Shown here in pieces: positions 2,097 through 59,706 of a DNA stretch of 64,000 bases (position 1 is the first letter of the stretch; the number at the start of each line of letters is the position of its first letter). Made by a program: the position numbers and the translations under genes. Below the pieces are notes generated by a model, which was not told where the DNA came from, made no database searches, and saw nothing but the letters and a program-made list of their open reading frames with translations. Location of the stretch: positions 8,767 through 72,766 of the forward strand of contig CAIJZZ010000070.1 in NCBI GenBank assembly GCA_903825255.1. The letters are read 5' to 3'. The DNA comes from an uncultured bacterium (GTDB lineage: Bacteria > Patescibacteriota > Minisyncoccia > Phycocordibacterales > UBA9973).

Positions 2097-2172
2097 ATTA
2101 TAATAAGATATCTTTATCTTCTAATGTTCTTATTAGAACATGCTTCTAGGCGTGGATTATAAAAACTTAAAC

Positions 2173-2233
2173 AATAGTTTTACAAGGCTCTTGGGTAATT
2201 TCTTTTAAACATAAAGTTCGAAGTTCATAGAGT
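2173..2233 (+). repeat. conserved ~60-nt upstream motif, copy 1 (upstream of ccdA)
   Basis: AATAGTTTTACAAGGCTCTTGGGTAATTTCTTTTAAACATAAAGTTCGAAGTTCATAGAGT matches 4271-4331 at roughly 85 percent identity. Confidence 0.7.
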
Positions 2234-2305
2234 ATTGGATCCTGCGATTTTTAGCCTTGTTTTACAAGGATAATTTTATGCTACCTATAATGGGAATTTA
2301 ACTGA

Positions 2306-3103: not shown

Positions 3104-4268
3104 ATCAACTAAAAATATTGTTCTAGCCATTGTTGTTTGTTTAATTGTTATATCTATTTGGTATTTGGAATCAAAAAAGCCACAAATAAATTCCACTAGC
3201 TCGGATATTATTTTAAATAATATTATTAATAACGAAAATACAACTTCAACACCGAATACAAATATAAAAAATACAACTAAAAATACCAAAACAACACAAA
3301 ACATAATTTCAGATAGAACTGTTATTAGAACCCAAAAAGCAAAAGAATATCCTAGGGCTAAAGAACTATCCGATCCACAAGGTTTTATCAATACATCACC
3401 ATTTAAATTAGCTGATATCGTTGGAAAAAAGGTTGTACTAGTAGATTTTTGGACTTACAGTTGTATTAATTGCGTGCGAACTATCCCGTATTTAAATGCT
3501 TGGTATCAAAAATATAAAGACTTAGGTTTAGAAATTGTAGGTGTGCATACTCCTGAATTTGATTTTGAAAAAGATTATAATAACGTTTCAAAGGCCGTAC
3601 AACAATTAGGTATTAAGTACCCAGTTGTTCTCGATAGTAACCAAGGTACTTGGAATGCTTATCAAAATCTTTATTGGCCACATGAGTATTTAATAGATAT
3701 CGATGGTTTTATTGTTCACGATAAAATAGGCGAAGGTTCTTATGGTGAAACTGAAAAGAATATTCAAAAAGCATTACAAGAAAGAAATTTAACTTTAGGA
3801 ATTACAACCCCGATTCCAAATTCAATAGTAAATCCTCTCGATGTGATCACTATGGATCAATCAAAAGTTGAAAGTCCTGAAACCTATTTTGGTTCTACTA
3901 GAAATGAATATCTAGGGAATGGCCAAAAAAGTGTTTCTGGACTTCAAACGCTTTCAATTCCAAATGATATTCAATCAGATACTCTTTATCTTGATGGTAC
4001 TTGGAGTTTTCAAGATCAATATGCAGAAAATACTAGCAGTACTGCTAAAATTACATATAAATACAGTGCTAAGAATGTTTACTTTGTGGCAAGTTCAAAA
4101 AATGGAGTACCGATAAAAATATTTCAAGATGGAAAATTAATTAACACTATTACGATAAAAGACAATAAGCTCTACCCCCTTATTCAAGGAACTGATTATG
4201 GGGCACACACTTTACAAATAGAAGTTGATGGGGCTGGCTTGCAAGCTTTTACTTTCACTTTTGGTTAA
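3096..4268 (+). CDS. membrane-anchored thioredoxin-fold oxidoreductase (DipZ C-terminal type)
   Basis: N-terminal TM, then an Asn/Thr-rich linker, then the redoxin core VVLVDFWTYSCINCVRTIPYL (CxxC) and a beta-rich C-terminal extension. The start overlaps the ccdA stop by 8 nt. Confidence 0.8.
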   Translation: MNKSTKNIVLAIVVCLIVISIWYLESKKPQINSTSSDIILNNIINNENTTSTPNTNIKNTTKNTKTTQNIISDRTVIRTQKAKEYPRAKELSDPQGFINTSPFKLADIVGKKVVLVDFWTYSCINCVRTIPYLNAWYQKYKDLGLEIVGVHTPEFDFEKDYNNVSKAVQQLGIKYPVVLDSNQGTWNAYQNLYWPHEYLIDIDGFIVHDKIGEGSYGETEKNIQKALQERNLTLGITTPIPNSIVNPLDVITMDQSKVESPETYFGSTRNEYLGNGQKSVSGLQTLSIPNDIQSDTLYLDGTWSFQDQYAENTSSTAKITYKYSAKNVYFVASSKNGVPIKIFQDGKLINTITIKDNKLYPLIQGTDYGAHTLQIEVDGAGLQAFTFTFG

Positions 4269-4270
4269 AA

Positions 4271-4331
4271 AATAGTGTTATAAGGCTCTCGGGTAATTTC
4301 TTTTAAACACTTGGTTCGAAGTTCATAGGGT
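4271..4331 (+). repeat. conserved ~60-nt upstream motif, copy 2 (upstream of msrA)
   Basis: AATAGTGTTATAAGGCTCTCGGGTAATTTCTTTTAAACACTTGGTTCGAAGTTCATAGGGT is the second copy of the 2173-2233 motif. Confidence 0.7.
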
Positions 4332-4359
4332 GTAGAATTTCAAATTAAAATTTAATTGA

Positions 4360-6278: not shown

Positions 6279-7148
6279 AAAGGTTTTGTTTTAAATATAT
6301 TTAAAAAGATAGATAAAAAATTAGCGCGAAAAGCGCTAAAGTTTTTTTTAGGCGGAATAACCCTTATTTTTCTAGTTTTTTTAGGCGTATTTATCGCTAT
6401 GCAATTGAATCTTACCCAAGTGGAGGGAAGTGTGGATACTAAAAGTAATTTATATAATTCAATCCAAGATGTTTTTACTCGTAAAGAACAAGTTGCTAAG
6501 ACACCAGATTGGGCCAAGACTGATGATTGGACTGTGATCAGAAGAGGTCTCACTAAAGATAAAGCATTAATAGAAAAAGCGAGCAATGTTTCTGGTGTGC
6601 CTGTCCGAACAATTCTTGCTCCTATCGTAGTAGAACAATTTCGTTATTTTGGATCAAATCGGGAACTTTTAAAAAAATTATTTTTACCACTTCAAGCTCT
6701 CGGGAACAGTGTTAAATTTTCTTATGGGATAGCTGGAGTCAAAATCGCAACCGCACAACAAATTGAAGCAAATTTAAAAGATTCTACCAGTCCATATTAT
6801 TTAGGTAGTGAATATGAACATCTTTTAGATTTCAAAACTAAAAATAGAGATAGTGAAAGAATGGCTCGTTTGACGGATGATAAAAATCATTATTATTCAT
6901 ATCTTTACACAGCTCTATTTATAAAAGAGATACAGACACAATGGGAAAATGCTGGTTACCCAATATCAAATCGTCCAGAAATATCGGCCACTATTTTTAA
7001 TTTAGGTTTTAAACATTCAGAGCCCAAAGAAAATCCAGAGGTTGGTGGATCAGATATTATAGTAAACGGTAAGACTTATACCTTCGGTGGTTTAGCTTAT
7101 CAATTTTTCTATTCAAATGAACTCGGAAAAACATTTCCAATTAATTAA
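6276..7148 (+). CDS. hypothetical membrane-anchored protein
   Basis: ATG at 6276 (MKGFVLNIF...). One TM segment (FLGGITLIFLVFLGVFIAMQL) is followed by a soluble domain with no motif I recognise. Confidence 0.55.
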   Translation: MKGFVLNIFKKIDKKLARKALKFFLGGITLIFLVFLGVFIAMQLNLTQVEGSVDTKSNLYNSIQDVFTRKEQVAKTPDWAKTDDWTVIRRGLTKDKALIEKASNVSGVPVRTILAPIVVEQFRYFGSNRELLKKLFLPLQALGNSVKFSYGIAGVKIATAQQIEANLKDSTSPYYLGSEYEHLLDFKTKNRDSERMARLTDDKNHYYSYLYTALFIKEIQTQWENAGYPISNRPEISATIFNLGFKHSEPKENPEVGGSDIIVNGKTYTFGGLAYQFFYSNELGKTFPIN

Positions 7149-7155
7149 ATATTTT

Positions 7156-7193
7156 TTGTGTATTAACTATTTTCTTAGTATAATTCATTTATG
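7156..7193 (+). promoter_or_regulatory. promoter placed for a leaderless transcript
   Basis: TTGTGT (7156-7161), 17-nt spacer, TATAAT (7179-7184), 6 nt, then ATG at 7191. Confidence 0.55.
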
Positions 7194-8789
7194 CAATATC
7201 TGAGAAATACTTCTCATAAAAGAGGCTTCACCCTCCTCGAAATCCTCCTCGTCGTCGCTGCCATTGCCATACTTGCCACTGTCATCATACTAGCTCTCAA
7301 CCCTAATAAACAATTAGGAGACACTAGAAATGCTAAAAGGAAAGTGGATCAAAGTAGTATCACCGATGCTATCGCTCAATATCAAATAGACCATGGTAAA
7401 CTACCTGGACCAGACTTAATCCCAGTAGGTACTGAAATGGATGCTAAAGAAATCTGTAAAACTAATATCACAGATTCTTCTTGTCTTAACCTCTCTGATT
7501 TAACTGATAACAATATTTACTTAAGTTCCATTCCTATTGATCCTTCGATCATCTCTGGTCCTGGCTCAGGCTATACTATTTATCAGAGTACGGCGAATAA
7601 CAAAATTGTAGTGTTAGCACCGAATATAGAAATTAGTGGAGGAGAAAGAGGCAACAATACTAATACTGTTTCAACCCCTACTGTAGATATTCCAGCTGAC
7701 ATTTACACTTCTCCTCAAGATATAACACTCGCCACTACAACTTCAGGCGCCACTATTTATTACACCACTGATGGCTCTGATCCAACTTCTAGTAGTACTC
7801 CATATTCTTCTCCCATTAATATCTTTACCACAACTACACTCAAAGCAATTGCTATTAAATCTGGGATGACGGATAGTGGAATATTTAATAGAGATTATAT
7901 TTTTATTTCAGAACCATTTGCCGGCGGTTCAGGTACAGTTGATGATCCATATCAAGTCGCTACTTCAAATCAACTAAATAACATTAGATATTTATTAAAT
8001 AAACATTTTATACAAGTAAATGATATTGATTTAAATATTGCACCGTATAATACAGGTACTGGATTTATTCCTATCGGAGATTCACTTAGTATTTTTTCTG
8101 GAACTTTTTCAGGGGGTGGATATACAATTTCAAACTTATATATTAATGCAAGTGGTGTAACTTATGTAGGCCTTTTTGGAATTATAGGTGGTGCTTATGA
8201 TACTACAATACAAAATTTAAAATTAATAAATGTAAATATATATTCAGTAAATGATCATGTTGGGGCATTAGTCGGTGCTTCTATAGGTGCTAATATTACA
8301 AATTGTTCTTCTACTGGTTCTGTAACCGGTAATGATTATGTTGGTGGGTTGGTTGGTAATGATCAAGGATATGTAAGTAATAGTTGGTCTTCTGCTTCTG
8401 TTTTTGGACATGATTATGTTGGTGGTTTGATAGGTATAGGTAATTCATCTTCAGAAAATAATTCTTATGCACGTGGAAACGTAACCGGTAATGATTATGT
8501 TGGTGGTTTTGCTGGTAATAAACAAGGTGCTACTTGGAATGATAATTATTCAACTGGTTTAGTAACTGGAGTTGGAAGTAATGTCGGAGGATTTGTAGGA
8601 AATAATAATTATATTATAAATGATTCATATTATGATTCTATAACTTCAGGAAGAGGTGACGCTGGTAATGGAGATCCTGAAACTACAACTTGGCTCAAAA
8701 CTCAATCAAATTATCCGTTATCTTGGAATTTTACAACAATTTGGAATATGGATGGTATTACTAATGACGGTTACCCATTTTTAAGATAA
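7191..8789 (+). CDS. modular type IV pilin-like protein with chitobiase-C-like and GLUG-repeat modules
   Basis: Prepilin leader and cleavage motif KRG|FTLLEILLVVAAIAILA with Glu at +5. TIYYTTDGSDPTSSSTPYSSPINI..TLKAIAIKSGMTDS resembles the CHB_HEX_C-type module. (N/H)DYVGG(L/F)xG motifs repeat (GLUG-like). Confidence 0.8.
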   Translation: MQYLRNTSHKRGFTLLEILLVVAAIAILATVIILALNPNKQLGDTRNAKRKVDQSSITDAIAQYQIDHGKLPGPDLIPVGTEMDAKEICKTNITDSSCLNLSDLTDNNIYLSSIPIDPSIISGPGSGYTIYQSTANNKIVVLAPNIEISGGERGNNTNTVSTPTVDIPADIYTSPQDITLATTTSGATIYYTTDGSDPTSSSTPYSSPINIFTTTTLKAIAIKSGMTDSGIFNRDYIFISEPFAGGSGTVDDPYQVATSNQLNNIRYLLNKHFIQVNDIDLNIAPYNTGTGFIPIGDSLSIFSGTFSGGGYTISNLYINASGVTYVGLFGIIGGAYDTTIQNLKLINVNIYSVNDHVGALVGASIGANITNCSSTGSVTGNDYVGGLVGNDQGYVSNSWSSASVFGHDYVGGLIGIGNSSSENNSYARGNVTGNDYVGGFAGNKQGATWNDNYSTGLVTGVGSNVGGFVGNNNYIINDSYYDSITSGRGDAGNGDPETTTWLKTQSNYPLSWNFTTIWNMDGITNDGYPFLR

Positions 8790-13110: not shown

Positions 13111-13914
13111 ATGGAAATCTCACCAGAAAAAAAAGTAAAATTATATCAAGGCTTAAGAATTGCCTTAATTGTTTTTTTAGCGGTTATTGTTGCGAGTAGT
13201 TTTACAAATATGAATTATGACAAGTATGATAATAAGCCGGTAAATACAATTTCTTTATCTGGACATGGGGAAGTTCAAGCAGTACCGGATATTGCTAACG
13301 TTGATTTTACAATTCGTAAAGAAGCTAAAACAGTAAAGGATGCTCAAGATGCTGTAAGTCAAGTTGAAAAAAAAGTTTTAGATTTATTAAAAACAGATAA
13401 TATTGCAGATAAAGATATAAAAGCACAAAGTGTTTCTTTTAACCCTAAATATGAATATCAATATACTGGAACACTAGTTCCATGTAATCAATTTGGTTGC
13501 CCACCTCGACCAGGTCAGAATGTTATTACTGGTTATGAAGCTTACGAAAGTATTAGTCTAAAAATTAGAAATACAGATGATACTGGTAAAGTTATTCAAG
13601 GCCTTGGAACACTTGGAGTAACTGAATTAAATGGTCCAAATTTTACAGTGGACAATGAAGATGCTTTGAAAGCTACTGCTCGAAAGAGTGCTATAGTTGA
13701 CGCTCAAACCAAAGCTAAAGCATTAGCCAACGATCTAGGTATTCGTTTAGGAAAAATTACCTCTTTTTCTGAATCTGGTAATTATCCAGTACCGATGTAT
13801 GCAAAAGCAATGATGGGCGCTACACTCGATACTGCTTCTTCTGCTCCAGCTGTGGTTCCAGCAGGAGAGAATACGATTAGCTCAGATGTGACTATTACTT
13901 ACGAAATAAAATAA
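13111..13914 (+). CDS. SIMPL/DUF541-family periplasmic protein
   Basis: N-terminal TM, then ISLSGHGEVQAVPDIANVDFTI and ...GENTISSDVTITYEI, which fit the SIMPL-domain pattern. Confidence 0.7.
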   Translation: MEISPEKKVKLYQGLRIALIVFLAVIVASSFTNMNYDKYDNKPVNTISLSGHGEVQAVPDIANVDFTIRKEAKTVKDAQDAVSQVEKKVLDLLKTDNIADKDIKAQSVSFNPKYEYQYTGTLVPCNQFGCPPRPGQNVITGYEAYESISLKIRNTDDTGKVIQGLGTLGVTELNGPNFTVDNEDALKATARKSAIVDAQTKAKALANDLGIRLGKITSFSESGNYPVPMYAKAMMGATLDTASSAPAVVPAGENTISSDVTITYEIK

Positions 13915-13931
13915 AAAATAATAAGTATATA

Positions 13932-13952
13932 AAAACCCCTTTTGGGGTTTTT
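13932..13952 (+). terminator. intrinsic terminator
   Basis: AAAACCCC-TTTT-GGGGTTTT hairpin with a T-run, 18 nt after the stop codon. Confidence 0.7.
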
Positions 13953-13962
13953 ATATTTAGGT

Positions 13963-13991
13963 TTGACTATTTTACTCAAAAAGAGTAATAT
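13963..13991 (+). promoter_or_regulatory. sigma70-like promoter for secE-nusG
   Basis: TTGACT (13963-13968), 17-nt spacer, TAATAT (13986-13991). Confidence 0.6.
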
Positions 13992-14047
13992 AAGATTAGC
14001 CCTTGAAAGGGGGCTTTTTTAAAAGATAAAGAAAATTAATCAAAATT

Positions 14048-14233
14048 ATGTCTAAAATTACTGAATATATTAAAGAAACCAAAGGAGAATTAAAACATGT
14101 AAATTGGCCAACTCGTAAACAGACCCTTTATTATACTTTAATTGTAGTTGTATTGTCCGTAATTGTGGCTTATTTTTTAGGCTTATTCGATTATCTTTTC
14201 TCTCAAGGTTTAGTAAAAATAATTTCTTTTTAA
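14048..14233 (+). CDS. secE: preprotein translocase subunit SecE
   Basis: 61 aa, with a KGELKHVNWPTRKQ motif followed by a single TM. It sits directly upstream of nusG. Confidence 0.8.
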   Translation: MSKITEYIKETKGELKHVNWPTRKQTLYYTLIVVVLSVIVAYFLGLFDYLFSQGLVKIISF

Positions 14234-14242
14234 ATAAATTTT

Positions 14243-14788
14243 ATGTCAAAACAAGAAACAGAAGGAGCTAGAAATTGGTACGCCATTCATACTTATGCCG
14301 GATATGAAAATGCGGTTCTTCGTAATTTACGCCAGAGAATAGATTCACTTGGTATGAATGATAAGATTTTTAATGTCATTGTGCCGGTGGAAAAGAAAAT
14401 AAAAATTAAAGCTGGTAAAAGAGTTGAAATAGAAGAAAAAATTTATCCAGGTTATGTGTTAGTCGATATGATTGTGACAGATGATTCTTGGTATGTGGTA
14501 CGCAATACTCCTCGAGTGACTGGATTCGTCGGAGCCGGAGTGAATCCTGTTCCATTAAAAAAAGAAGAAGTAGATTTCTTATTTAAGAAAATGGATAATG
14601 CTACCGCTAAACATAATATTGATTTAGCTCTCGGAGAGATGGTGCGCATTGTAGATGGCCCATTTAAAGACTTAGAAGGTAAAGTAAATTCAATTGATCA
14701 AGAACGTGGTAAAGTAAAAGTATTAGTCTCAATGTTTGGTCGTGAGACCCCAGTCGAGTTGGACTTCTTGCAAGTCAAGAAAATTTAA
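14243..14788 (+). CDS. nusG: transcription termination/antitermination factor NusG
   Basis: NGN domain (WYAIHTYAGYENAV) plus a C-terminal KOW (GEMVRIVDGPFKDLEGKV). Conserved synteny supports the call. Confidence 0.92.
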   Translation: MSKQETEGARNWYAIHTYAGYENAVLRNLRQRIDSLGMNDKIFNVIVPVEKKIKIKAGKRVEIEEKIYPGYVLVDMIVTDDSWYVVRNTPRVTGFVGAGVNPVPLKKEEVDFLFKKMDNATAKHNIDLALGEMVRIVDGPFKDLEGKVNSIDQERGKVKVLVSMFGRETPVELDFLQVKKI

Positions 14789-20994: not shown

Positions 20995-21111
20995 AAAGCA
21001 TCATTCTCACTATTATTTAACGAGAACTGACGATTGTGGATATCAATATATGACTTTTTGTCGTTTAGCCCAGCCTGGGTAGCATTGATGACCATGACAA
21101 AAAGAAAATAT

Positions 21112-22431
21112 ATGATAAATAAGCAACGCAGTTTCGCGCCCGCCCGCAACGGTGAGCGTAGCGATTCGGGCAGGCGTGGAGCTTCTGCTCCATCTCGCGG
21201 TAAATTTAATAGTAGTCATTCTAGTCACTCTAAACCTAGTTTCCATTCAAAAAGTGGAGGCAGTTTTGGTAGTAAAAAAAGAAGTAGTGGTGGTAAAAAA
21301 AGATTTGGTGGAGAACGAATTGATTTTTCACGTTTTGTGAAGAAAGCTCAGATGATAAAGGAAATTCCATATGTTTCTAAACATACGTTTTCTGATTTTC
21401 CATTTAATTCACAACTTTATAAAAATATAGCTAAAGCTGGTTTTATAAATCCACGACCAATTCAAGATCAAGCTATTCCTTCAGTACTTGCCGGGAAAGA
21501 TGTTTTCGGTATGGCTAATACCGGGACAGGGAAGACAGCCGCTTTTCTTTTGCCACTTATTGAAAAAATTGCGAAAACAAAAGGTCAATCAAAAAGAGAA
21601 ACAGTACTAATTATGGCTCCGACTCGCGAACTGGCTTTACAAATAGAATCAGATTTTAAAAATCTCGCTTTTGGGTTTGGAATGTTTTCTGTTTGTTGTG
21701 TCGGTGGACTTCCAATAATGAAACAAATTTCTGAATTAAAAATGGGTGTCTCTTTTGTAATCGGCACCCCAGGTCGCTTACGAGACCTTATTGCTCGAAA
21801 AGTGTTAGATTTATCACAATGTCACTCTGTGGTACTCGATGAGGCAGATCGAATGCTTGATATGGGCTTCCGTGATGATATGGTTTTTATTTTAGCTAAG
21901 TGCCCAAAAGAGGATAGACAAACTCTTTTCTTTTCTGCCACACTCTCACCTGAAATTAAAAAACTCACGACTGAATTTCTAAAAGATCCAGTTTTCATTT
22001 CTGTTATCTCTGGGGAGACTGCCAAAAATATTGATCAGGATATCGTGCGAGTTCGCACAAAAGAAGAAAAATTAGAAAAGCTTCATGAAATTTTAAAAAA
22101 AGATGGATCAGATAAAGTTTTAATTTTTCGAGAAATGAAACACAGTGTAGACACTTTAACTAAGGAATTAAATCATTTAGGTTTTAAAGTCGGTTCGATT
22201 CATGGTGACAAAAGAAGCCGAGAACGTATTCGTACTCTAGACGCTTTTAAGCAAGATAAAATAAATATTTTAATTGCGACAGATGTCGCGGCTAGAGGCC
22301 TAGATATCCCTGATGTGACCCATGTGATCAATTATGATATTCCACAGAATTACGATACTTATGTGCATCGTATTGGACGTACTGGCCGTTCAGGTAAATC
22401 AGGCACTGCTCTCACTTTCGTGCCAGCCTAA
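21112..22431 (+). CDS. DEAD-box ATP-dependent RNA helicase with basic Ser/Gly/Arg-rich N-terminal tail
   Basis: Q-motif PRPIQDQAIP, then ANTGTGKTAAF, VLDEADRML, SATL and HRIGRTGRSG. The start is uncertain: in-frame ATGs at 21088, 21094 and 21112. Confidence 0.9.
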   Translation: MINKQRSFAPARNGERSDSGRRGASAPSRGKFNSSHSSHSKPSFHSKSGGSFGSKKRSSGGKKRFGGERIDFSRFVKKAQMIKEIPYVSKHTFSDFPFNSQLYKNIAKAGFINPRPIQDQAIPSVLAGKDVFGMANTGTGKTAAFLLPLIEKIAKTKGQSKRETVLIMAPTRELALQIESDFKNLAFGFGMFSVCCVGGLPIMKQISELKMGVSFVIGTPGRLRDLIARKVLDLSQCHSVVLDEADRMLDMGFRDDMVFILAKCPKEDRQTLFFSATLSPEIKKLTTEFLKDPVFISVISGETAKNIDQDIVRVRTKEEKLEKLHEILKKDGSDKVLIFREMKHSVDTLTKELNHLGFKVGSIHGDKRSRERIRTLDAFKQDKINILIATDVAARGLDIPDVTHVINYDIPQNYDTYVHRIGRTGRSGKSGTALTFVPA

Positions 22432-23413: not shown

Positions 23414-24016
23414 TTAGCGTGTCGAGCAAGCTTCTAAATAATTTTTCTCAATTACTTCCCAATTTAAATTAGCAAAGAAAGCTTCAACATACTTTTTCTT
23501 TTCTGAGGTTGGATAGTCATATACAAAAGCATGTTCCCACATATCAATTCCTATAATCCAATTGAGCCCATTTAGTTGCCCCATATGATGTTCGTCTATC
23601 CAAGCAGGAATGAGTTGGTTGGTTTGTTTGTCGAAATAAAGTGCTGCCCAACCGACGCCACGAGTCATCGTTAAGGTTTTAAAACCAGTGAGCCAGGCTT
23701 CAAACGAAGGAGTTATTTTTTCAATAGCCATTTTAAATTGAGAATTTACTGGTAAGGATTTTGCTCCACCTTCTAATGAGCCAAAAAAATATTCATGGTT
23801 GCGCATACCATTAAACTCAAAACCAAAACGTCTTTGTAATTCACCGATAACATAAGCATTTTTTTCATAATCAGACATATATTCTGATATTTTTTCTGAA
23901 ATTAAATTGCTGTTTTTCACATAGCCAGCATATAACTTCAAATGTTCTTCGATGTTTTTCGACGAGATTCCTTTTAATTCTCCGATATTAAATTTTTTTT
24001 CTATAAATTTTTCCAT
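23414..24016 (-). CDS. Fe/Mn-family superoxide dismutase
   Basis: GIDMWEHAFVYDY (Asp and His ligands), MRNHEYFF and IEEHLKLYAGYV are present. I place the start at MEKFIEKK (24016). The longer track ORF runs into a GC-rich repeat. Confidence 0.82.
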   Translation of the reverse strand: MEKFIEKKFNIGELKGISSKNIEEHLKLYAGYVKNSNLISEKISEYMSDYEKNAYVIGELQRRFGFEFNGMRNHEYFFGSLEGGAKSLPVNSQFKMAIEKITPSFEAWLTGFKTLTMTRGVGWAALYFDKQTNQLIPAWIDEHHMGQLNGLNWIIGIDMWEHAFVYDYPTSEKKKYVEAFFANLNWEVIEKNYLEACSTR

Positions 24017-24030
24017 AAATTTTATTCGTT

Positions 24031-24097
24031 GTGCTGTTTTTTCAGGTCCTCGGTCCTCCTCGCGAGTACGCTCGGCCAGACCATTCAAAAACAGCAC
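24031..24097. repeat. family A GC-capped hairpin element, copy A1
   Basis: Arms GTGCTGTTTTT / AAAAACAGCAC enclose TCAGGTCCTCGGTCCTCCTCGCGAGTACGCTCGGCCAGACCATTC. The core matches 59515-59564 at 49 of 50 positions. Confidence 0.85.
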
Positions 24098-24130
24098 AAC
24101 TTCATTATATTAATATGGTAACATTATAAC

Positions 24131-32079: not shown

Positions 32080-35000
32080 ATGGAGGATCAAAATAAAAAA
32101 TCAGAAAGTGCCTTGCGCGAAGAAGCGGTTTTAAAATTCTGGAAAGAACAGAAAGTTTTTGAGAGTTCTTTAGCAAAAGAGTCGCCAAAGGGTGAGTATG
32201 TTTTTTATGAAGGTCCTCCGACCGCGAACGGTAAGCCTGGTATTCACCACTTGGAAGCTAGAGCTTTTAAAGATGCCATCCCACGTTACAAAACAATGTG
32301 CGGATATCATGTACGTCGAAAAGGAGGTTGGGACACACATGGTTTGCCAGTAGAGCTACAGGTAGAAAAAGAATTAGGGTTAAAATCTAAAAAAGAAATT
32401 GAAGAATACGGTATCGCAAAATTTAATCAAAAGTGTAAAGAGAGTGTTTGGACTTATGTAGACCTTTGGGAGAAATTTACAGAGAGAATAGGGTATTGGG
32501 TAGATCAAGAAAATCCATATGTAACATATCATAATGATTATATTGAATCTGTTTGGAATGTAATTAAAGAAACGAATAAACAAAATTTACTTTATAAAGA
32601 TTATAAGGTGGTACCTTGGTGTCCACGTTGTGGTACGACACTTTCTTCTCACGAGCTTGCGCAAGGGTATGAAGTGGTGAAAGATTTGTCAGTTACTGCG
32701 AAGTTTAAAATTAAAGCCTCGTCCAGTACTTCTGCTCGGGTCCTCGGTCTGGGGCCAGACCACTCGCAGAAGCACATGGACTCGGCTAATGCCTATATAC
32801 TTGCTTGGACAACGACACCTTGGACTTTGCCTGGTAATGTTGCACTTGCTGTCGGGGAAGATATTATTTATGTAAAAATAAAAAAAGATGATGAAATTTT
32901 AATTCTTGCAAAAGCAAGGCTTTCGCAAATAGAAGGTGAATATGAAATTCAAGAGGAATTAAAAGGTAAAGATTTGATCGGCTTAGAATATGAACCATTG
33001 TATCCATTTTTGAAAGATAATATTTCTGAAAAAGAAAAACCAAAATTAGAAAAAGCTTTTCAGGTGCATAAGGCTGGTTTTGTGACGACGGAAGATGGTA
33101 CTGGGGTAGTGCATACAGCTGTGATGTATGGACAGGATGACTTTATTTTAGGTAATGAAGTTGGCTTACCGAAACATCATCTTGTGGGTCTCGATGGAAA
33201 GTTTTTAAAAGATACTGGCTTTTTAGAAGGCAGGTTTGTACGGGATGAAGAGGTAGCAGTAGATATTATTAAAGATTTAGCAAGTCGCGGGCTTTTATTT
33301 AAGAAAGAAAAATATGAGCACTCATATCCACATTGTTGGCGTTGTCACACAGCGCTCATTTATTATGCGCGAGATTCTTGGTATATAAAAATGACTGCAC
33401 TGCGAGATAAAATGGTGGCAGAAAATGAAGGCATAAATTGGGAGCCAGAATATATCAAAGAAGGGCGTTTTGGCGAGTGGCTTCGAGAAATAAAGGACTG
33501 GGCGATTTCTCGAGAGCGATATTGGGGTACACCCTTACCTGTGTGGACTTGTGAAAAGTGTCACCAGAATGAAGTAGTTGGTAGTATTGCCGATCTAAAA
33601 GCAAAAATAAAAAAGTCTGGGAATAATTATTTTGCTATGCGCCACGGTGAGGCAGATAATAATTTAAGTGATTTATATTATAAAGATCCTCATCATACAG
33701 CTAAATTAACAGAAAAAGGAAAAGCTCAAGTTTTAGAGAGTGCTAAAAATTTTAAAGAAAAAATTGATATAGTTATCGCGTCTCCTTTTGAAAGAACTAA
33801 AGAAACTTCTAAGATTATTTGTGAACAAATAAATTTTCCTATAGAAAAAATAATTTACGATGAAAGAATTCAAGAATGGGAAATTAGTTCAAATTTTGAG
33901 GGGAAAGGAAGGGCAACTTTTAAACAGTATTATGAAAAAGATTATTTAGATAATCCGACCGAAGTATTACCAGACGGAGAAAGTTTTACCGAGCTTATAA
34001 AAAGAGTTGGTAGTTTTATTTATGATTTAGAAAATAAATATTCAGGTAAAAATATTTTAATTGTTGGGCATGCAGGAGTCGGTGATGCATTAGGCTTTGT
34101 AATAAATGGGCTAACCCCTGATTCTTTTTCGAGTAAAAATGACCCATTTAATCCACTTCAAAATGCTGAAATTAAAAATTTTGATTTCATTCCACTTCCA
34201 CATAATGAAAATTATGAACTTGATTTACACAAACCATATATTGATGAAGTGGAGTTAGTTTGTGACTGCGGAGGGAAATTAGTCAGAGCGAAAGAAGTCA
34301 TGGATGTGTGGCTCGATTCTGGTACGATGCCTTTTTCGCAAGATCATTATCCCTTCAATGGGGAGATTCAATATCCTGCTGATTTTATTTCTGAAGCGAT
34401 AGATCAGACACGTGGTTGGTTTTATACTTTACACGCCGTTGGAGCTTTGATGGGACGGGGAAAAGCTTATAAAAATGTAATTTGCTTAGGACTTCTACTT
34501 GATGCGAAGGGTAAGAAGATGTCTAAATCTGTTGGAAATATCGTGGACCCTTGGGAGATGATTGAGAAGTACGGAGTAGATACTTTGCGCTTTTGGATGT
34601 ATTCAGTGAATCAACCAGGGGAATCAAAACTTTTTGATGAAAAAACTGTTTTAGAATTACATCGTCAGATTTTTGGTTTGCTCTATAATGTGCTCGCATT
34701 TTATGAATTATACCGTGATCCACAATTAGAAGTTCTAGAATATAAAAAACCAGAAAATATTTTAGACCAATGGATAGTCGCTAAATTAGACGAACTTATT
34801 AAACTCTGCACTCTAAAAATAGAAGATTATAAATTATTGGAGCCAGCTCGAGCTATTAAAGATTTTATTGGGGATCTTTCGACTTGGTATTTACGTAGAT
34901 CTCGAGAGAGAATAAAAGAAGGAGATATTGAAGCCAAACAAACTTTATATTTTATTCTAAAAACTTTAGCGAAAATTATGGCACCGTTTGCGCCTTTTTC

Positions 35001-35583
35001 GGCGGAAGATATTTGGCAGAAATTGAAGAATGAAAATGACATAGAAAGTGTGCATTTAGAAAGTTGGCCTACCTTCGCTCTCGCTACGGCGGGCGAGGCC
35101 CAAAATATTTTAGAGAATATGGATCAAGTTAGAAAGATTGTTTCTCTGGGACTAGAAGCTCGACAGAAAGCGGGGATAAAAGTACGTCAACCGCTACAGA
35201 AATTAGAAGTTGCAAACCTATCATTAAGAGCAGAATTTTTAGAAATTATTAAAGATGAATTGAATATAAAAGAAGTGACAGTAAATAAGAAATTAGAAGC
35301 AGAAGTATTTTTAGATACAGAAATTTCTGAAGAATTGAAGATAGAGGGGCAATATCGCGAGTTCGTGCGAGCTATTCAAGATATGCGTAAAAAAGCTGGG
35401 CTAACACCCTCTGATGTTATTATACTTTCTGTTGAAACTGGCGAGGAAGGTAGAAAAATAATTGAAAAATTTGAAACTGAAATTAAAAAAACAGTCCTTG
35501 CCTCAAAAATAGAATTTTCTCCTAATGATGGGGATACTGTAAAAGTTGATGAATTGATTTTCAAAATACTCATTCAAAAATAA
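32080..35583 (+). CDS. ileS: isoleucyl-tRNA synthetase (type 2) carrying an internal histidine-phosphatase domain and two short GC-rich inserts
   Basis: PPTANGKPGIHHLE (HIGH), WTTTPWTLPGN, WISRERYWGTPLP and KMSKSVGN are present. The protein is 1167 aa because of insertions. Confidence 0.95.
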   Translation: MEDQNKKSESALREEAVLKFWKEQKVFESSLAKESPKGEYVFYEGPPTANGKPGIHHLEARAFKDAIPRYKTMCGYHVRRKGGWDTHGLPVELQVEKELGLKSKKEIEEYGIAKFNQKCKESVWTYVDLWEKFTERIGYWVDQENPYVTYHNDYIESVWNVIKETNKQNLLYKDYKVVPWCPRCGTTLSSHELAQGYEVVKDLSVTAKFKIKASSSTSARVLGLGPDHSQKHMDSANAYILAWTTTPWTLPGNVALAVGEDIIYVKIKKDDEILILAKARLSQIEGEYEIQEELKGKDLIGLEYEPLYPFLKDNISEKEKPKLEKAFQVHKAGFVTTEDGTGVVHTAVMYGQDDFILGNEVGLPKHHLVGLDGKFLKDTGFLEGRFVRDEEVAVDIIKDLASRGLLFKKEKYEHSYPHCWRCHTALIYYARDSWYIKMTALRDKMVAENEGINWEPEYIKEGRFGEWLREIKDWAISRERYWGTPLPVWTCEKCHQNEVVGSIADLKAKIKKSGNNYFAMRHGEADNNLSDLYYKDPHHTAKLTEKGKAQVLESAKNFKEKIDIVIASPFERTKETSKIICEQINFPIEKIIYDERIQEWEISSNFEGKGRATFKQYYEKDYLDNPTEVLPDGESFTELIKRVGSFIYDLENKYSGKNILIVGHAGVGDALGFVINGLTPDSFSSKNDPFNPLQNAEIKNFDFIPLPHNENYELDLHKPYIDEVELVCDCGGKLVRAKEVMDVWLDSGTMPFSQDHYPFNGEIQYPADFISEAIDQTRGWFYTLHAVGALMGRGKAYKNVICLGLLLDAKGKKMSKSVGNIVDPWEMIEKYGVDTLRFWMYSVNQPGESKLFDEKTVLELHRQIFGLLYNVLAFYELYRDPQLEVLEYKKPENILDQWIVAKLDELIKLCTLKIEDYKLLEPARAIKDFIGDLSTWYLRRSRERIKEGDIEAKQTLYFILKTLAKIMAPFAPFSAEDIWQKLKNENDIESVHLESWPTFALATAGEAQNILENMDQVRKIVSLGLEARQKAGIKVRQPLQKLEVANLSLRAEFLEIIKDELNIKEVTVNKKLEAEVFLDTEISEELKIEGQYREFVRAIQDMRKKAGLTPSDVIILSVETGEEGRKIIEKFETEIKKTVLASKIEFSPNDGDTVKVDELIFKILIQK
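32728..32773 (+). repeat. family A GC-capped hairpin element, copy A3 (in frame inside ileS)
   Basis: ACTTCTGCTCGGGTCCTCGGTCTGGGGCCAGACCACTCGCAGAAGC. The arms are CTTCTGC/GCAGAAG and the inner stem is GGTCTGG/CCAGACC. It encodes ...TSARVLGLGPDHSQKH... Confidence 0.75.
35066..35101 (+). repeat. family B GC-rich element, copy B1 (in frame inside ileS)
   Basis: GGCCTACCTTCGCTCTCGCTACGGCGGGCGAGGCCC shares CCTTCGC..GCTACGG..CGGGCG with 58417-58451. It encodes PTFALATAGEAQ. Confidence 0.6.
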
Positions 35584-48734: not shown

Positions 48735-49805
48735 TTATTCTTCTTCCTTAAACTTCTTTCTTATCTCCTTTAGAATATCTGTAGCGATTTTTTTATTTTC
48801 TTTGAGGAATGTGCGAGTGTTGTCATAACCGACTCCTAATTTTATTTTCTCGCCCTGTGAAGCCTTGGCGGAGGAGGGTTCTTTTTCGCCACCTGGTGTA
48901 TAAAAATAAGAGTTACCAGTTTTTTCTATGATTTTAAATTTTTCACCAAGAGCCATTATTTCTCCTTCTTTAGAAATACCTTCGTTGTAAATGATATCAA
49001 ATTCAGTTTGTTTGAATGGTGCCGCCACTTTATTTTTTACGACTTTTACGCGAGTGCGGGAACCGACGACGTCTTCGCCTTTTTTAATTTGAGCAATTTT
49101 ACGAATATCTAATCGAATAGAAGTATAGAACTTCAAAGCTTTTCCACCAGTTGTTGTTTCTGGATTACCAAACATTACACCGATTTGCATACGGATTTGG
49201 TTGATAAAGATAACAACCGTTTTTGATTTAGCGACGATAGCCGTGAGTTTTCGAAGCGCTTGTGACATTAAACGAGCTTGTTTCCCGACGTGGTATGCGC
49301 CCATATCACCTTCGATTTCATCTTTTGGAGTAAGGGCAGCGACAGAGTCGATGACAATTACATCAATCTTACCAGTACGAACTAAACTTTCTACTATTTC
49401 TAAGGCTTGTTCACCTGTATCCGGTTGAGAAATAAGTAAGTCATTAATATTTACGCCAAGTTTTTTAGTGTATTCAGGATCCATAGCGTGCTCAGCATCA
49501 ATGTAAGCACAAACACCACCTAGTTTTTGAGCTTCAGCCACGATATGCAAAGAAAGGGTAGTCTTACCCGAGGATTCTGGTCCAAAGATTTCAATAATTC
49601 TGCCACGTGGAATTCCTCCGACACCGAGCGCCATATCTAATCCAATAGAGCCTGTCGGAATGACATTGATATCTACTTTCGGTGTGTCACCCATTTTCAT
49701 AATGGATCCTTCCCCGAATTTAGTCTGGATCGCCTTTAATGTATCTTCTAAGCCTGATTGATTTACTGTTTTGTCTTCTTTTTTCTCTTTTTTCTTTTGT
49801 TGCAT
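48735..49805 (-). CDS. recA: recombinase RecA
   Basis: [13 protein letters not shown] (Walker A), [10 protein letters not shown], and the loop regions [19 protein letters not shown]. Confidence 0.96.
48850..48880 (-). repeat. family B GC-rich element, copy B2 (in frame inside recA)
   Basis: The recA-sense strand reads AACCCTCCTCCGCCAAGGCTTCACAGGGCGAG, about 25 of 33 identical to 53929-53962. It is flanked by the direct repeats GGCGAAAAA / GGCGAGAAA. Confidence 0.65.
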
Positions 49806-49832
49806 AAACTTTTTAGTAATTTTGTAGGATTT

Positions 49833-49885
49833 GCTTTTTCGAGCTGGTCTGGCTTCAAACCGAGGACCCGAGAAAAAGTAAAGCC
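49833..49885 (-). repeat. family A GC-capped hairpin element, copy A4
   Basis: The reverse complement reads CTTTTTCTCGGGTCCTCGGTTTGAAGCCAGACCAGCTCGAAAAAG. Confidence 0.75.
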
Positions 49886-49892
49886 TATAAAA

Positions 49893-50249
49893 TTACTTTA
49901 ATATTAATTTATAATTTTTTTCATCACTATTTTTAAATTTATCTTCTGCTTTTATATCAATTATATTATACCCCAAGAGGAGTGCAATCGTTTCATCAAA
50001 GTTGCCTTGTTGGTCGATTGAGATTATTCTACCATTTATGCTTAAGTTTATTGCATTTTTTGCATTACCAGTGATTCGCATAATCTCACCAGGAGTAGTA
50101 GACCCGTCCATGATATTTATAATCTGTACATTTTTTATTTTTACACCGAAGATCAAGTCTCTTGAGCCGATAAAAACAAAAATTATTATTATCAGAAATA
50201 AAAGTGATACCGATCCTATTTTAACAATTTTTTTCGCGTCTTGGTTCAT
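49893..50249 (-). CDS. hypothetical single-TM protein
   Basis: 118 aa, with a TM (IGSVSLLFLIIIIFVFIG). It lies between ftsK and recA on the same strand. Confidence 0.5.
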   Translation of the reverse strand: MNQDAKKIVKIGSVSLLFLIIIIFVFIGSRDLIFGVKIKNVQIINIMDGSTTPGEIMRITGNAKNAINLSINGRIISIDQQGNFDETIALLLGYNIIDIKAEDKFKNSDEKNYKLILK

Positions 50250-50260
50250 TTTGGTTAGAC

Positions 50261-50329
50261 GGGTAATATTTTATTTTGCTCGGGTCCTCGGTTTGGGGGG
50301 AGCCCTGCTCGCAAAACAAAATATTACCC
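50261..50329 (+). repeat. family A GC-capped hairpin element, copy A5
   Basis: 19-bp arms GGGTAATATTTTATTTTGC / GCAAAACAAAATATTACCC (18 of 19 paired) enclose TCGGGTCCTCGGTTTGGGGGGAGCCCTGCTC. Confidence 0.75.
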
Positions 50330-50332
50330 TTT

Positions 50333-52573: not shown

Positions 52574-52648
52574 AAAAAAACAAAATATGAAAGTTTTCTG
52601 GCGGACAAGACGCAGCCAGTGCCCGCAGGCGAAAACTTTCACATTTTG
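52574..52648. repeat. singleton long GC-capped hairpin
   Basis: 24-nt arms AAAAAAACAAAATATGAAAGTTTT / AAAACTTTCACATTTTGTTTTTTT (23 of 24 complementary) flank CTGGCGGACAAGACGCAGCCAGTGCCCGCAGGCG. Confidence 0.7.
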
Positions 52649-52731
52649 TTTTTTTTATTAATCCCTCTGACAAGGGGGAAATAAGGGGTTAAAAAACTTG
52701 CCTTTTTTATTGTCCTATATATAATGGACGT

Positions 52732-59119: not shown

Positions 59120-59485
59120 ATGTCAGATAAATTTAAAGATATTATAGAAAAAATTGAAACTATGTCCGTGCTTGATTTGCACGAATTAGTCAAAGCTTTA
59201 GAAGAGAAGTTTGGAGTTTCGGCTGCGGCTGTTGCTGTTGCTGGTCCTGCCGCTGGTCCTGCCGCTGAGGAAAAAGATGCCTTTACTGTGGTCTTGGCTT
59301 CCGCCGGTGAACAAAAGATTGCCGTGATGAAGATCGTAAAAGAAGTATTAGGTCTAGGACTTAAAGAAGCTAAAGATCTAGTCGATGGCGCTCCAGCAAC
59401 TTTGAAAGATGGAATGAAAAAAGCTGAAGCTGAAGAAGTGAAGAAAAAGATAGAGGAAGTAGGTGGAAAAGTAGAGCTTAAATAA
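59120..59485 (+). CDS. rplL: 50S ribosomal protein L7/L12
   Basis: Ala/Pro hinge [17 protein letters not shown] and the C-terminal domain [22 protein letters not shown]. Confidence 0.95.
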
Positions 59486-59488
59486 ATA

Positions 59489-59586
59489 AAAAAAACACAA
59501 ATAACTAAATTTTTTCAGGTCCTCGGTTCTCCTCGCGAGTACGCTCGGCCAGACCATTCAAAAATTTTTTATTTGTGTTTTTTTAA
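59489..59586. repeat. family A GC-capped hairpin element, copy A2
   Basis: Arms AAAAAACACAAATAA...TTATTTGTGTTTTTT enclose TCAGGTCCTCGGTTCTCCTCGCGAGTACGCTCGGCCAGACCATTC. It starts 4 nt after the rplL stop. Confidence 0.85.
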
Positions 59587-59591
59587 TTTTT

Positions 59592-59706
59592 ATCCCTATA
59601 TATTGTTTTCTAGGGTACGGATTTTTCAAAGATACATAAGTCTTAAAAAATCCTGAAGTTTTCGCGCCGTCGCGCTCAAAACCCCCTAAAAATAATATAT
59701 GGGGAT
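59592..59706. repeat. 115-nt unit bounded by ~24-nt inverted repeats (MITE-like or structured RNA)
   Basis: ATCCCTATATATTGTTTTCTAGGG (59592-59615) is largely complementary to CCCCCTAAAAATAATATATGGGGAT (59682-59706). The interior holds the helix GGATTTTT/AAAAAATCC. Confidence 0.5.

What the first reader, a model, noticed from the sequence alone, without database searches (positions are those of the whole stretch)
24031..24097. Family A GC-capped hairpin element: two copies 49/50 identical 35 kb apart, plus three diverged copies
TCAGGTCCTCGGTCCTCCTCGCGAGTACGCTCGGCCAGACCATTCAAAAA (24042-24091) recurs at 59515-59564 with one C/T difference. Both copies sit at the apex of longer, locus-specific AT-rich inverted repeats: GTGCTGTTTTT/AAAAACAGCAC at 24 kb and AAAAAACACAAATAA/TTATTTGTGTTTTTT at 59.5 kb. 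Shorter relatives share GGGTCCTCGGT, and two of the three also share CCAGACCA. They lie at 32728-32773 (inside ileS), 49833-49885 (opposite orientation) and 50261-50329. The two near-identical copies are in unrelated contexts. One lies between the divergent sod and comEC-like starts, and the other lies just after rplL. That favours recent mobility or gene conversion over a shared regulatory site. No transposase is in the window, so the element would be non-autonomous (REP/MITE/RPE-like). In each copy a T-run lies 5-prime and an A-run 3-prime of the core, so neither strand gives a canonical hairpin-plus-U terminator.
Basis: seen in the sequence. Interest (0 to 1): 0.72.

Follow-up and report, generated by a model that had tools for sequence, protein, structure and literature searches.

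The report
Hairpin repeat element in CPR bacteria
The repeat is real: it is one family of about 100-base GC-tipped hairpin repeats found across many ultra-small Patescibacteria, sitting between genes and, in frame, inside essential genes such as isoleucyl-tRNA synthetase, much like the palindromic elements of Rickettsia.

Summary
The window, an AT-rich Paceibacteria/Nomurabacteria-like genome, holds five copies of one hairpin family: 24020-24108, 32715-32787 (ileS), 49819-49893 (minus strand), 50258-50332 and 59493-59580. A pattern scan found the same core in at least 114 places. All but one chance hit lie in Patescibacteria genomes, 74 genomes in total.

The architecture is a locus-specific stem of 15-28 bp with strong covariation. 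Inside it sit a T-run, the box UCA-GGUCCUCGGUUCUC, a small variable GC hairpin, the box CCAGACCAUUC and an A-run.

Of 116 distinct copies, 65 (56%) lie in frame inside housekeeping genes: IleRS, PheRS-beta, Pol I, UvrA/C/D, GatA, KsgA, TsaD and TGT. They occur in both orientations and all six reading frames.

Copies cluster at orthologous sites that are empty in other relatives. The hairpin flips in place, and cores are more alike within a genome than chance predicts.

So the near-identity of the two window copies reflects a family-wide conserved core, possibly homogenised within the genome. It is not proof of recent transposition.

The best reading is a non-autonomous selfish palindromic element resembling the Rickettsia palindromic elements (RPEs), with no mobilising enzyme identified. 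It matches no Rfam family, and I found no published description in CPR bacteria.

The parts
24020..24108 (+). Copy 1: the full hairpin in the 115-bp spacer between the sod start (minus strand, ATG at 24015) and the start of the metallo-beta-lactamase-fold gene (24131). The outer stem is GTTGTGCTG/CAGCACAAC.
   Evidence: CM R1 scores 66.6 bits, E 2.3e-13. Fold energy is -30.4 kcal/mol, z -4.9. The orthologous spacer is empty in L001, L002 and L003. In L039 it holds a flipped family-A copy.
24045..24058 (+). Left conserved box of copy 1, GGTCCTCGGTCCTC. The family consensus is GGTCCTCGGTTCTC, a tandem GGTYCTC x2.
   Evidence: These columns are invariant or nearly so in alignment A1 of 48 copies.
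24058..24075 (+). Apical variable hairpin P2 of copy 1, CCTCGCGAGTACGCTCGG. This variant is shared only with the 59.5-kb copy in this window.
24076..24086 (+). Right conserved box of copy 1, CCAGACCATTC.
   Evidence: Invariant columns in A1.
32715..32787 (+). Copy 2: a hairpin inside ileS (ORF 32080-35583). It is in frame and adds about 21 residues (SSTSARVLGLGPDHSQKHMDS) between KFKIK and YILAWTTTPW. P2 is reduced to CTGGGG.
   Evidence: CM R1 scores 42.7 bits, E 1.9e-7. Fold energy is -36.8 kcal/mol. It appears as a gap against PDB 8c8w. The site is empty in 68/120 orthologues.
49819..49893 (-). Copy 3: a hairpin filling the spacer between a 118-aa gene (49893-50249, minus strand) and recA (48735-49805, minus strand). 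Its right box is a variant, CCAGACCAGCTC.
   Evidence: CM R1 scores 49.9 bits, E 3.2e-9. The same spacer holds family A in either orientation in L119, L120, L086, L101 and L012, holds another family in L121 and L124, and is empty in L099.
50258..50332 (+). Copy 4: a degenerate copy between the ftsK stop (50333) and the start of the 118-aa gene. The left box is intact, the right box is lost, and the stem is a perfect 19 bp.
   Evidence: CM R1 scores 28.4 bits, E 7e-4. Fold z is -4.3 and -7.9 on the two strands. It is 76% complementary to copy 3 (I1).
59484..59590 (+). Copy 5: a hairpin starting at the rplL stop codon. The outer stem has an A-tract and a T-tract like a bidirectional terminator, and the family-A core (59510-59564) sits at its apex.
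   Evidence: CM R1 scores 72.8 bits, E 6.7e-15 over 59493-59580. The inverted repeat I25 has 30-nt arms, 87% complementary.

Best explanation
Family A is one of several families of about 75-110-nt palindromic repeat elements in the AT-rich genomes of Paceibacteria (Patescibacteria/CPR).

Anatomy:
- A long stem (P1).
- An inner T-run/A-run.
- An asymmetric, highly conserved GC-rich internal loop: UCA-GGTCCTCGGTTCTC on one side and CCAGACCATTC on the other.
- A small variable apical hairpin (P2).

I read it as selfish, non-autonomous DNA of the RPE kind.

Shown:
- Whole hairpins have been inserted between genes. In multiples of three bases and without stop codons, they have also been inserted into surface-tolerant loops of housekeeping proteins.
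- Copies persist at the same sites through speciation while their stems drift by compensatory changes.
- The hairpin can flip in place.
- The variable middle of the core is more alike among copies of one genome than among genomes.

Inferred:
- Flipping and stem maintenance come from recombination or template switching between the two arms.
- Within-genome similarity comes from gene conversion or core replacement at hairpin tips.
- The conserved boxes are the recognition site of an unidentified trans-acting enzyme that made or makes new copies.

The five window copies are ordinary members of the family. The two near-identical ones share a genome-specific core variant on unrelated stems.
For: Distribution:
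- At least 114 exact pattern matches were found, and all but one GC-rich chance hit lie in Patescibacteria MAGs (74 genomes).
- 17 further, partly decayed copies turned up in 741 kb of flanking DNA.

Structure:
- 21 of 22 P1 pairs and the P2 pairs show changes on both sides.
- 0 of 500 shuffles reached the observed covariation score, and the slid controls collapse.

Coding copies:
- 65 of 116 copies lie inside long ORFs, 39 sense and 26 antisense, read in all six frames.
- Hosts are IleRS, PheRS-beta, GatA, Pol I, UvrA, UvrC, UvrD, KsgA, TsaD, TGT and a class-V aminotransferase.

Insertion polymorphism:
- Filled/empty pairs exist in which the whole 72-104-nt hairpin is absent: L076/L106, L086/L099, W/L099, L098/L075 and W or L087 against L004.
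- In the IleRS tree the insert classes are scattered, with apparent footprints.

The whole hairpin moves:
- The stem GCCTYGCCTGATGCTTYTGC accompanies the core in ileS, tsaD and pheT.

Flipping:
- L037 and L091 are 83% identical over 4.8 kb. The 103-nt element sits at the same place, is 97% identical and is inverted, including its stem bulge.
- 36 of 117 orthologous pairs are flipped, and 9 of 18 multi-genome coding sites show both orientations.

Concerted evolution:
- Identity of the variable middle is 0.80 for same genome/different site, against 0.71 for different genome and site (p 2e-6).
- For same site/different genome it is 0.77.

Orientation is nearly random relative to genes and to GC skew.

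No Rfam family matches.
Against: - No mobilising enzyme, target-site duplication or conserved terminal inverted repeat was found, so transposition itself is not demonstrated.
- The core boxes are far more conserved than neutral selfish DNA should be over this divergence. However, the scan required exact boxes, which inflates this impression.
- Many copies sit at orthologous sites in species with 70-85% flank identity. Their paired stems are maintained there, which could equally mean host-level selection for the structure.
- Streamlined CPR genomes would be expected to delete useless 100-nt inserts.
- In one pair (L089/L011) the 'empty' site is a simple terminator-like hairpin with the same outer stem. 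The unit that came or went there is only the roughly 65-nt core plus inner stem.
Confidence: 0.6

Rival explanations
1. The mobile or exchangeable unit is only the conserved core with its inner T/A stem, about 55-65 nt. It is copied into the tip of pre-existing hairpins (terminators or older palindromic inserts) by template switching, gene conversion or a hairpin-loop-targeting enzyme. On this view the locus-specific stems are landing pads inherited vertically, and the cores are cassettes that are swapped, nested and flipped.
For: - Window copies 1 and 5 have 54/55 identical cores on unrelated stems.
- L089 against L011: the outer stem AAAAGYRGAA/TTCYRCTTTT is orthologous, and L011 is a plain hairpin.
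- The window ileS insert (family A) and its closest relative L003 (family E) share outer arms but differ in their centre.
- Extra hairpins are nested inside P2 in L018:6856-7000, L012, L035 and L073.
- Cores tend to be genome-specific.
- The same sites are occupied by different families.
- There is precedent: IS1111 inserts into palindromic repeats (PMC5896051).
Against: - Most filled/empty pairs lack the whole hairpin, not just the core.
- A 20-nt stem travels with the core into ileS, tsaD and pheT.
- In L125 a complete family-A hairpin replaced part of a family-B hairpin, rather than its core alone.
- The L089/L011 pair can also be read as loss of the apex.
Confidence: 0.3
2. The hairpins are host-functional RNA or transcription elements: bidirectional terminators or attenuators, RNase processing sites, or mRNA-stabilising 3' hairpins at gene boundaries. 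The conserved internal loop would be a protein-binding site. Copies spread because they are useful.
For: - Covariation is strong and the internal loop is conserved, as in structured RNAs.
- Intergenic copies fill the whole spacer, with the core 20-50 nt from both neighbouring genes. 40 of 51 lie between co-directional genes.
- The outer ends are A-rich on the 5' side and T-rich on the 3' side, like bidirectional terminators. The rplL copy starts at the stop codon.
- Sites are kept across species.
- There is a weak sense bias, 65 to 40.
Against: - 56% of copies are inside ORFs and are translated in six frames.
- Orientation flips at orthologous sites and is near random relative to transcription and GC skew. 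An asymmetric RNA motif would be lost half the time.
- The core has the T-run on its 5' side and the A-run on its 3' side on either strand.
- Many orthologous spacers do without it.
- No Rfam match was found.
- Wobble-type mismatches favour the strand opposite to the sense bias, 62 against 32.
Confidence: 0.15
3. The core is a DNA-level binding site for a host protein, for example a nucleoid, replication, repair or cruciform-binding factor. It is displayed on an extruded hairpin and is therefore orientation-independent and conserved by host selection.
For: - Orientation independence combined with strong sequence conservation of an asymmetric core.
- The tandem GGTYCTC half-sites plus an inverted GGTCTGG resemble a protein-binding array.
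- Long persistence at sites.
Against: - No candidate protein was found.
- Copy number varies widely between related genomes: five copies in the 64-kb window, but none or one in the 15-24-kb loci L001-L004.
- Decayed copies are common.
- Placement inside ORFs of unrelated genes has no obvious logic.
Confidence: 0.1

Closest known systems
Rickettsia palindromic elements (RPEs)
   Same: - Several families of roughly 100-150-bp palindromic repeats in a small AT-rich genome.
- Many copies are inserted in frame into unrelated housekeeping ORFs without destroying them, and others are intergenic.
- No associated transposase is known.
(RPE features from PMC10969869; here.)
   Different: - A different phylum, and sequence homology to RPEs was not tested.
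- These elements are shorter.
- The conserved part is the GC-rich apex while the stems are locus-specific, whereas RPE copies are alignable along their length.
- In-place flipping and within-genome core homogenisation are documented here.
ERIC/IRU, and Correia (NEMIS) or SPRITE-type MITE-like repeats
   Same: - Imperfect palindromes of about 100-150 bp, found in either orientation in transcribed spacers.
- Highly conserved across species.
- Some look like terminators.
(My own knowledge plus PMC10969869.)
   Different: - Those have conserved terminal inverted repeats and usually a TA duplication, and they are essentially intergenic.
- Here the outer ends are not conserved, no duplication is seen, and 56% of copies are intragenic.
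REP/BIME and REPIN elements with RAYT transposases
   Same: - GC-rich hairpin repeats.
- Long persistence as intragenomic sequence populations (PMC8049555).
- Hairpins serve as targets for IS insertion.
   Different: - REPs are 20-40 nt, have a GTAG or CGTC head and are strictly extragenic.
- In a REPIN the conserved arms themselves form the hairpin.
- Here the arms vary and the tip is conserved. No RAYT was seen in the window.
GC clusters of yeast mitochondrial DNA and coding palindromes of Nematomorpha mitochondria
   Same: GC-rich palindromic modules scattered in a very AT-rich genome, including in-frame copies in protein genes. Palindrome arms are both translated (PMC6649704; the yeast GC clusters are from my own knowledge).
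   Different: Those are organellar and unrelated in sequence. Nematomorpha palindromes are long, perfect and not a dispersed repeat family.
Coxiella QMITE1/2 and IS1111 targeting of palindromes
   Same: Hairpin MITEs, some in frame in ORFs. An IS inserts specifically into a dispersed palindrome (PMC5896051), which is a precedent for insertion into hairpins.
   Different: QMITEs have defined ends and an IS partner. No IS partner is known here.

Membership tests
RPE-like coding palindromic repeats (a kind, not a homologous family) | A dispersed repeat that folds into a long hairpin. | tested here: met
   Folds. Covariation in 21 of 22 stem pairs. At least 114 copies.
RPE-like coding palindromic repeats (a kind, not a homologous family) | A large fraction of copies is inserted in frame in unrelated housekeeping ORFs that stay open. 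| tested here: met
   65 of 116 copies lie in long ORFs. Hosts are identified. The IleRS insertion is defined against PDB and orthologues.
RPE-like coding palindromic repeats (a kind, not a homologous family) | Sequence homology to Rickettsia RPE-1 to RPE-10. | not tested
   No RPE sequences were on hand. The host phylum is different, so I claim similarity of kind only.
MITE | Terminal inverted repeats conserved among copies. | tested here: not met
   The outer stem columns have no consensus. Only the inner T/A run and the core are conserved.
MITE | A target-site duplication flanking the element. | tested here: inconclusive
   No consistent duplication appears in the 11 family-A filled/empty pairs. 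The flanks are 73-80% identical, so junctions are blurred.
MITE | A parent IS or transposase with matching ends. | tested here: inconclusive
   No transposase or recombinase Pfam hit among 60 window ORFs. Whole genomes could not be searched.
REP/REPIN | A short (20-40 nt) palindrome with a conserved GTAG/CGTC head, extragenic, and a RAYT gene in the genome. | tested here: not met
   There is no such head, the conserved part is the apex, and 56% of copies are intragenic. RAYT presence is not testable genome-wide.
Intrinsic (rho-independent) terminator | A GC-rich stem-loop immediately followed by a U-tract on the transcribed strand. | tested here: not met
   The core has the T-run 5' and the A-run 3' on both strands. 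Only the far outer ends tend to A-rich/T-rich.
Any described RNA family (Rfam 15) | A score at or above the family's gathering threshold. | tested here: not met
   No hit in the window at gathering thresholds. With permissive thresholds only generic long-hairpin matches appear, far below threshold, and none aligns the core.

The most novel reading that the evidence does not exclude
Paceibacteria carry an undescribed structure-specific DNA mobility system. An unidentified enzyme recognises the asymmetric GC-rich core, whose left box copies 13 nt of a tRNA variable-loop/T-stem. It inserts, flips and exchanges this cassette at the tips of DNA hairpins, including hairpins inside essential genes. 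This would be a mode of transposition or conversion distinct from known MITE, REP/RAYT and IS200/IS605 mechanisms, and it would explain why the same codon-level sites are reused by several hairpin families.
Probability: 0.2. Interest if true: 0.85.

Novelty: new variant of a known kind. Interest (0 to 1): 0.66.

Why it matters
CPR/Patescibacteria genomes are regarded as extremely streamlined. Despite that, this class carries several families of about 100-nt hairpin repeats that sit in frame inside core enzymes of translation, replication and repair.

That extends the 'selfish DNA in protein-coding genes' phenomenon, known mainly from Rickettsia, to a large uncultured radiation.

- It explains much of the length variation at one loop of their IleRS, and probably of other proteins.
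- It gives a practical marker in the form of a covariance model.
- It offers a natural system, with flips, core homogenisation and site reuse, for studying how palindromes are created and maintained in bacteria.
- It is a caveat for annotation and for structure prediction of CPR proteins.

Tried and rejected
- Exact-protein look-ups of the window's RplL and IleRS found no contig, so the source genome could not be extended. DNA for P0003 and P0039 was unavailable.
- Rfam at gathering and at permissive thresholds gave nothing specific.
- Self-cleaving ribozyme, riboswitch or sRNA: rejected because of the six-frame coding copies, the flips and the lack of any Rfam match.
- tRNA-derived element: the left box equals 13 nt of tRNA-Lys(UUU)/tRNA-Thr(UGU), covering the variable loop and T stem. 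The rest of the core has no tRNA-like pairing, so I keep this only as a lead.
- Strand of function from wobble pairs: C.A plus A.C number 62 against 32 for G.T plus T.G on the GGTCC strand. This is too weak, is confounded by mutation bias, and points opposite to the mild sense bias.
- Orientation against GC skew: 68 of 116, p 0.08, so no replication-linked polarity.
- Composite transposon formed by copies 3 and 4 around the 118-aa gene: relatives have the gene with only one or neither copy, so rejected.
- Target-site duplications: none consistent.
- Assembly artefact as the cause of flips: unlikely, because the arms (28 bp or less) are shorter than assembler k-mers and flipped copies differ by compensatory substitutions. 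This is inference.

Full report
**Observation**

The window is about 32% G+C. It contains no tRNA genes and no Rfam match at gathering thresholds. The 55-nt stretch 24037-24091 recurs at 59510-59564 with 54/55 identity.

GGTCCTCGGT occurs five times exactly. Shuffles give 0.5 expected, and none of 100 reached five. Each occurrence is the apex of a long hairpin whose stem is specific to the locus.

I built a covariance model from 46 copies taken from other genomes, one per orthologous site, plus the two near-identical window copies. It finds exactly five places in the window: 24020-24108, 32715-32787, 49819-49893 (minus strand), 50258-50332 and 59493-59580.

**Source organism and genome context**

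The IleRS of the window is 64-77% identical to proteins from Paceibacterota, Nomurabacteria and Minisyncoccia MAGs. Neighbouring genes are syntenic with those genomes.

Pfam scans of 60 ORFs show ordinary housekeeping genes. No transposase, recombinase or HUH protein was found.

**The family**

I scanned one genome per species with GGTCCTCGGT-N(4-34)-GCCAGACCAYTC. All but one GC-rich chance hit (L103, an Ornithinibacter MAG) are Patescibacteria MAGs, and together with the other loci and the window they represent 74 genomes.

The consensus, from outside to inside, is:
- an outer stem that tends to be A-rich on the 5' side and T-rich on the 3' side;
- a variable middle stem;
- RC-TTTTT;
- one covarying pair;
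- UCA or UAA;
- the left box GGTCCTCGGTTCTC;
- a 5-6-bp GC hairpin, P2, in several variants;
- the right box CCAGACCATTC;
- AAAAA-GY and the complementary stem.

Pair counts on the 48-copy alignment show changes on both sides in 21 of 22 P1 pairs. One P2 pair reads CG in 32 copies, UA in 13 and GC in 2. None of 500 shuffles reached the observed covariation score, and the score collapses when partners are slid by one to three columns.

No Rfam family resembles the element. Literature searches found no description in CPR bacteria.

**Where the copies sit**

Of 116 distinct copies, 65 lie inside long ORFs, 39 sense and 26 antisense. They are read in all six frames, giving peptides such as QVLGSPGP..PDHS, GPRFSGS..ARPF, NGLAGVGDPENRGPE and EWSGRGRDPENRGPE.

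The host proteins are IleRS, PheRS-beta, GatA, DNA polymerase I, UvrA, UvrC, UvrD, KsgA, TsaD, TGT and a class-V aminotransferase.

The window's ileS copy adds 21 residues between KFKIK and YILAWTTTPW. That region is a gap in solved IleRS structures and is absent from 68 of 120 orthologues.

The 51 intergenic copies fill almost the whole spacer. The core lies 20-50 nt from both neighbouring genes, and 40 of the 51 copies lie between co-directional genes.

**Presence and absence**

The sod/MBL spacer is 41-59 bp without a hairpin in L001-L003, against 115 bp in the window.

Colinear comparisons of related loci gave 29 filled/empty pairs across several hairpin families. In 11 of them the insert is family A. 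In most of those the whole 72-104-nt hairpin is missing from the empty allele.

In one pair, L089 against L011, the empty allele is a plain terminator-like hairpin with the same outer stem. There the difference is only the core plus inner stem.

**Sites are reused and partly ancient**

The 118 copies, counted before removing two duplicates, fall into 48 clusters of orthologous sites. Twenty-five clusters contain two or more members.

Three of the five window sites are occupied in other species:
- The sod/MBL spacer is occupied in L039, in flipped orientation.
- The ileS site is occupied in about 16 of 120 orthologues.
- The recA-upstream spacer is occupied in L119, L120, L086, L101 and L012.

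The same sites are empty in other relatives or hold unrelated hairpin families. The ileS site carries at least six families. These are scattered over the IleRS tree, with apparent footprints.

In L125, a complete family-A hairpin has replaced most of a family-B hairpin.

**Flipping**

L037 and L091 are 83% identical over 4.8 kb. The 103-nt hairpin lies at the same position, is 97% identical, and is inverted together with its stem bulge.

Overall, 36 of 117 orthologous pairs are flipped. Nine of 18 multi-genome coding sites show both orientations.

Orientation is only weakly biased toward the sense strand (65 to 40) and toward GC skew (68 of 116, p 0.08).

**What moves**

The stem GCCTYGCCTGATGCTTYTGC accompanies the core in ileS, tsaD and pheT. 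In that subfamily the whole roughly 95-nt hairpin is therefore the unit that moves.

On the other hand, the variable middle of the core is more alike between different sites of one genome than between genomes. Identity is 0.80 against 0.71 (p 2e-6), and it is at least as high as between orthologous copies, at 0.77. In one genome, four sites have identical middles.

The window's two near-identical cores sit on unrelated stems.

Outer stems of orthologous copies are only about 59% identical while pairing is kept (examples).

Together this indicates long-lived hairpin sites whose stems drift and whose cores are homogenised or replaced within a genome. The identity of the two window copies is therefore not evidence of a recent jump.

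**Mechanism**

Shown: insertion polymorphism, in-frame coding copies, covarying stems, flips, and within-genome core similarity.

Inferred: the arms recombine or serve as templates for each other, which would give both flips and stem maintenance. Cores spread by conversion or by insertion at hairpin tips. The nested hairpins inside P2 of L018, L012, L035 and L073 point the same way. The conserved boxes are the recognition site of an unidentified enzyme.

A host RNA function, as terminator or processing site, remains possible for intergenic copies. It does not fit the intragenic majority or the free orientation.

**Caveats**

- The scan required exact boxes, so conservation of those 22 nt is partly by construction. 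Unselected copies found nearby include about as many decayed as intact ones.
- Gene maps of the fetched loci are ORF-based.
- Pairs used in the statistics are not independent.
- No whole genome could be examined.

**Verdict**

This is a real repeat family, widespread across one class of bacteria. It is RPE-like in kind but has an unusual architecture, with a conserved apex and variable stems, and unusual dynamics. As far as the held literature shows, it is undescribed.

Noticed in passing
window 59600-59700: A second, unrelated GC-cored hairpin element lies directly after the family-A copy in the rplL-purH spacer. The stretch AAAAAATCCTGAAGTTTTCGCGCCGTCGCGCTCAAAACCCC is identical to part of an element in L018:5650-5802. 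Related copies in L099 and L101 show filled/empty polymorphism.
   Followed up: partly
window 52574-52655: Another long AT-stemmed hairpin with a different GC-rich apex (TGGCGGACAAGACGCAGCCAGTGCCCGCAGGCG) lies between ftsK and the next gene. It has the same architecture as family A.
   Followed up: no
window 21087-21226 and 35071-35105: GC-rich hairpin-forming stretches lie inside ORFs: the N-terminal part of a DEAD-box helicase, and the C-terminal part of ileS. They are probably in-frame copies of other palindromic families.
   Followed up: no
window 32080-35583 (IleRS): The IleRS is 1167 aa and carries an inserted histidine-phosphatase domain (PF00300, around residue 550, motif RHGE). All 120 best homologues from Paceibacteria share it.
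   Followed up: partly
IleRS loop KFKxK / YILAWTTTPW (window 32713-32790; orthologues P0001-P0120): This single loop is an insertion hot spot. At least six unrelated hairpin families, two orientations, chimeras and footprints are scattered over the IleRS tree, and 68 of 120 orthologues are empty.
   Followed up: partly
window 2167-2240 and 4265-4338: A 74-nt direct repeat, 84% identical, lies upstream of two redox-repair genes: a DsbD/CcdA-like membrane protein and msrA. It has no Rfam match and may be a shared regulatory leader.
   Followed up: partly
L027:4218, L033:2353, L080:6916 (tRNA genes) versus the family-A left box: AGGTCCTCGGTTC in the left box is identical to the variable loop plus 5' T-stem of tRNA-Lys(UUU) and tRNA-Thr(UGU) in these genomes. 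It may be chance or a clue to origin.
   Followed up: partly
L002:1-118, 6345-6890, 13752-14378: Three small minus-strand genes with a PaaX_M domain (one also with a faint Cas2-like domain) interrupt otherwise conserved synteny around ileS. They look like a dispersed, possibly mobile gene family.
   Followed up: no
L125:77-859: A 260-aa reverse-transcriptase (RVT_1) gene sits immediately upstream of ileS in the genome whose ileS loop carries the family-B/family-A chimera.
   Followed up: no
window 8301-8527: Three diverged 78-81-nt tandem coding repeats lie inside a pilin-like protein with an N-terminal methylation motif and GLUG motifs (ORF 7191-8789).
   Followed up: no
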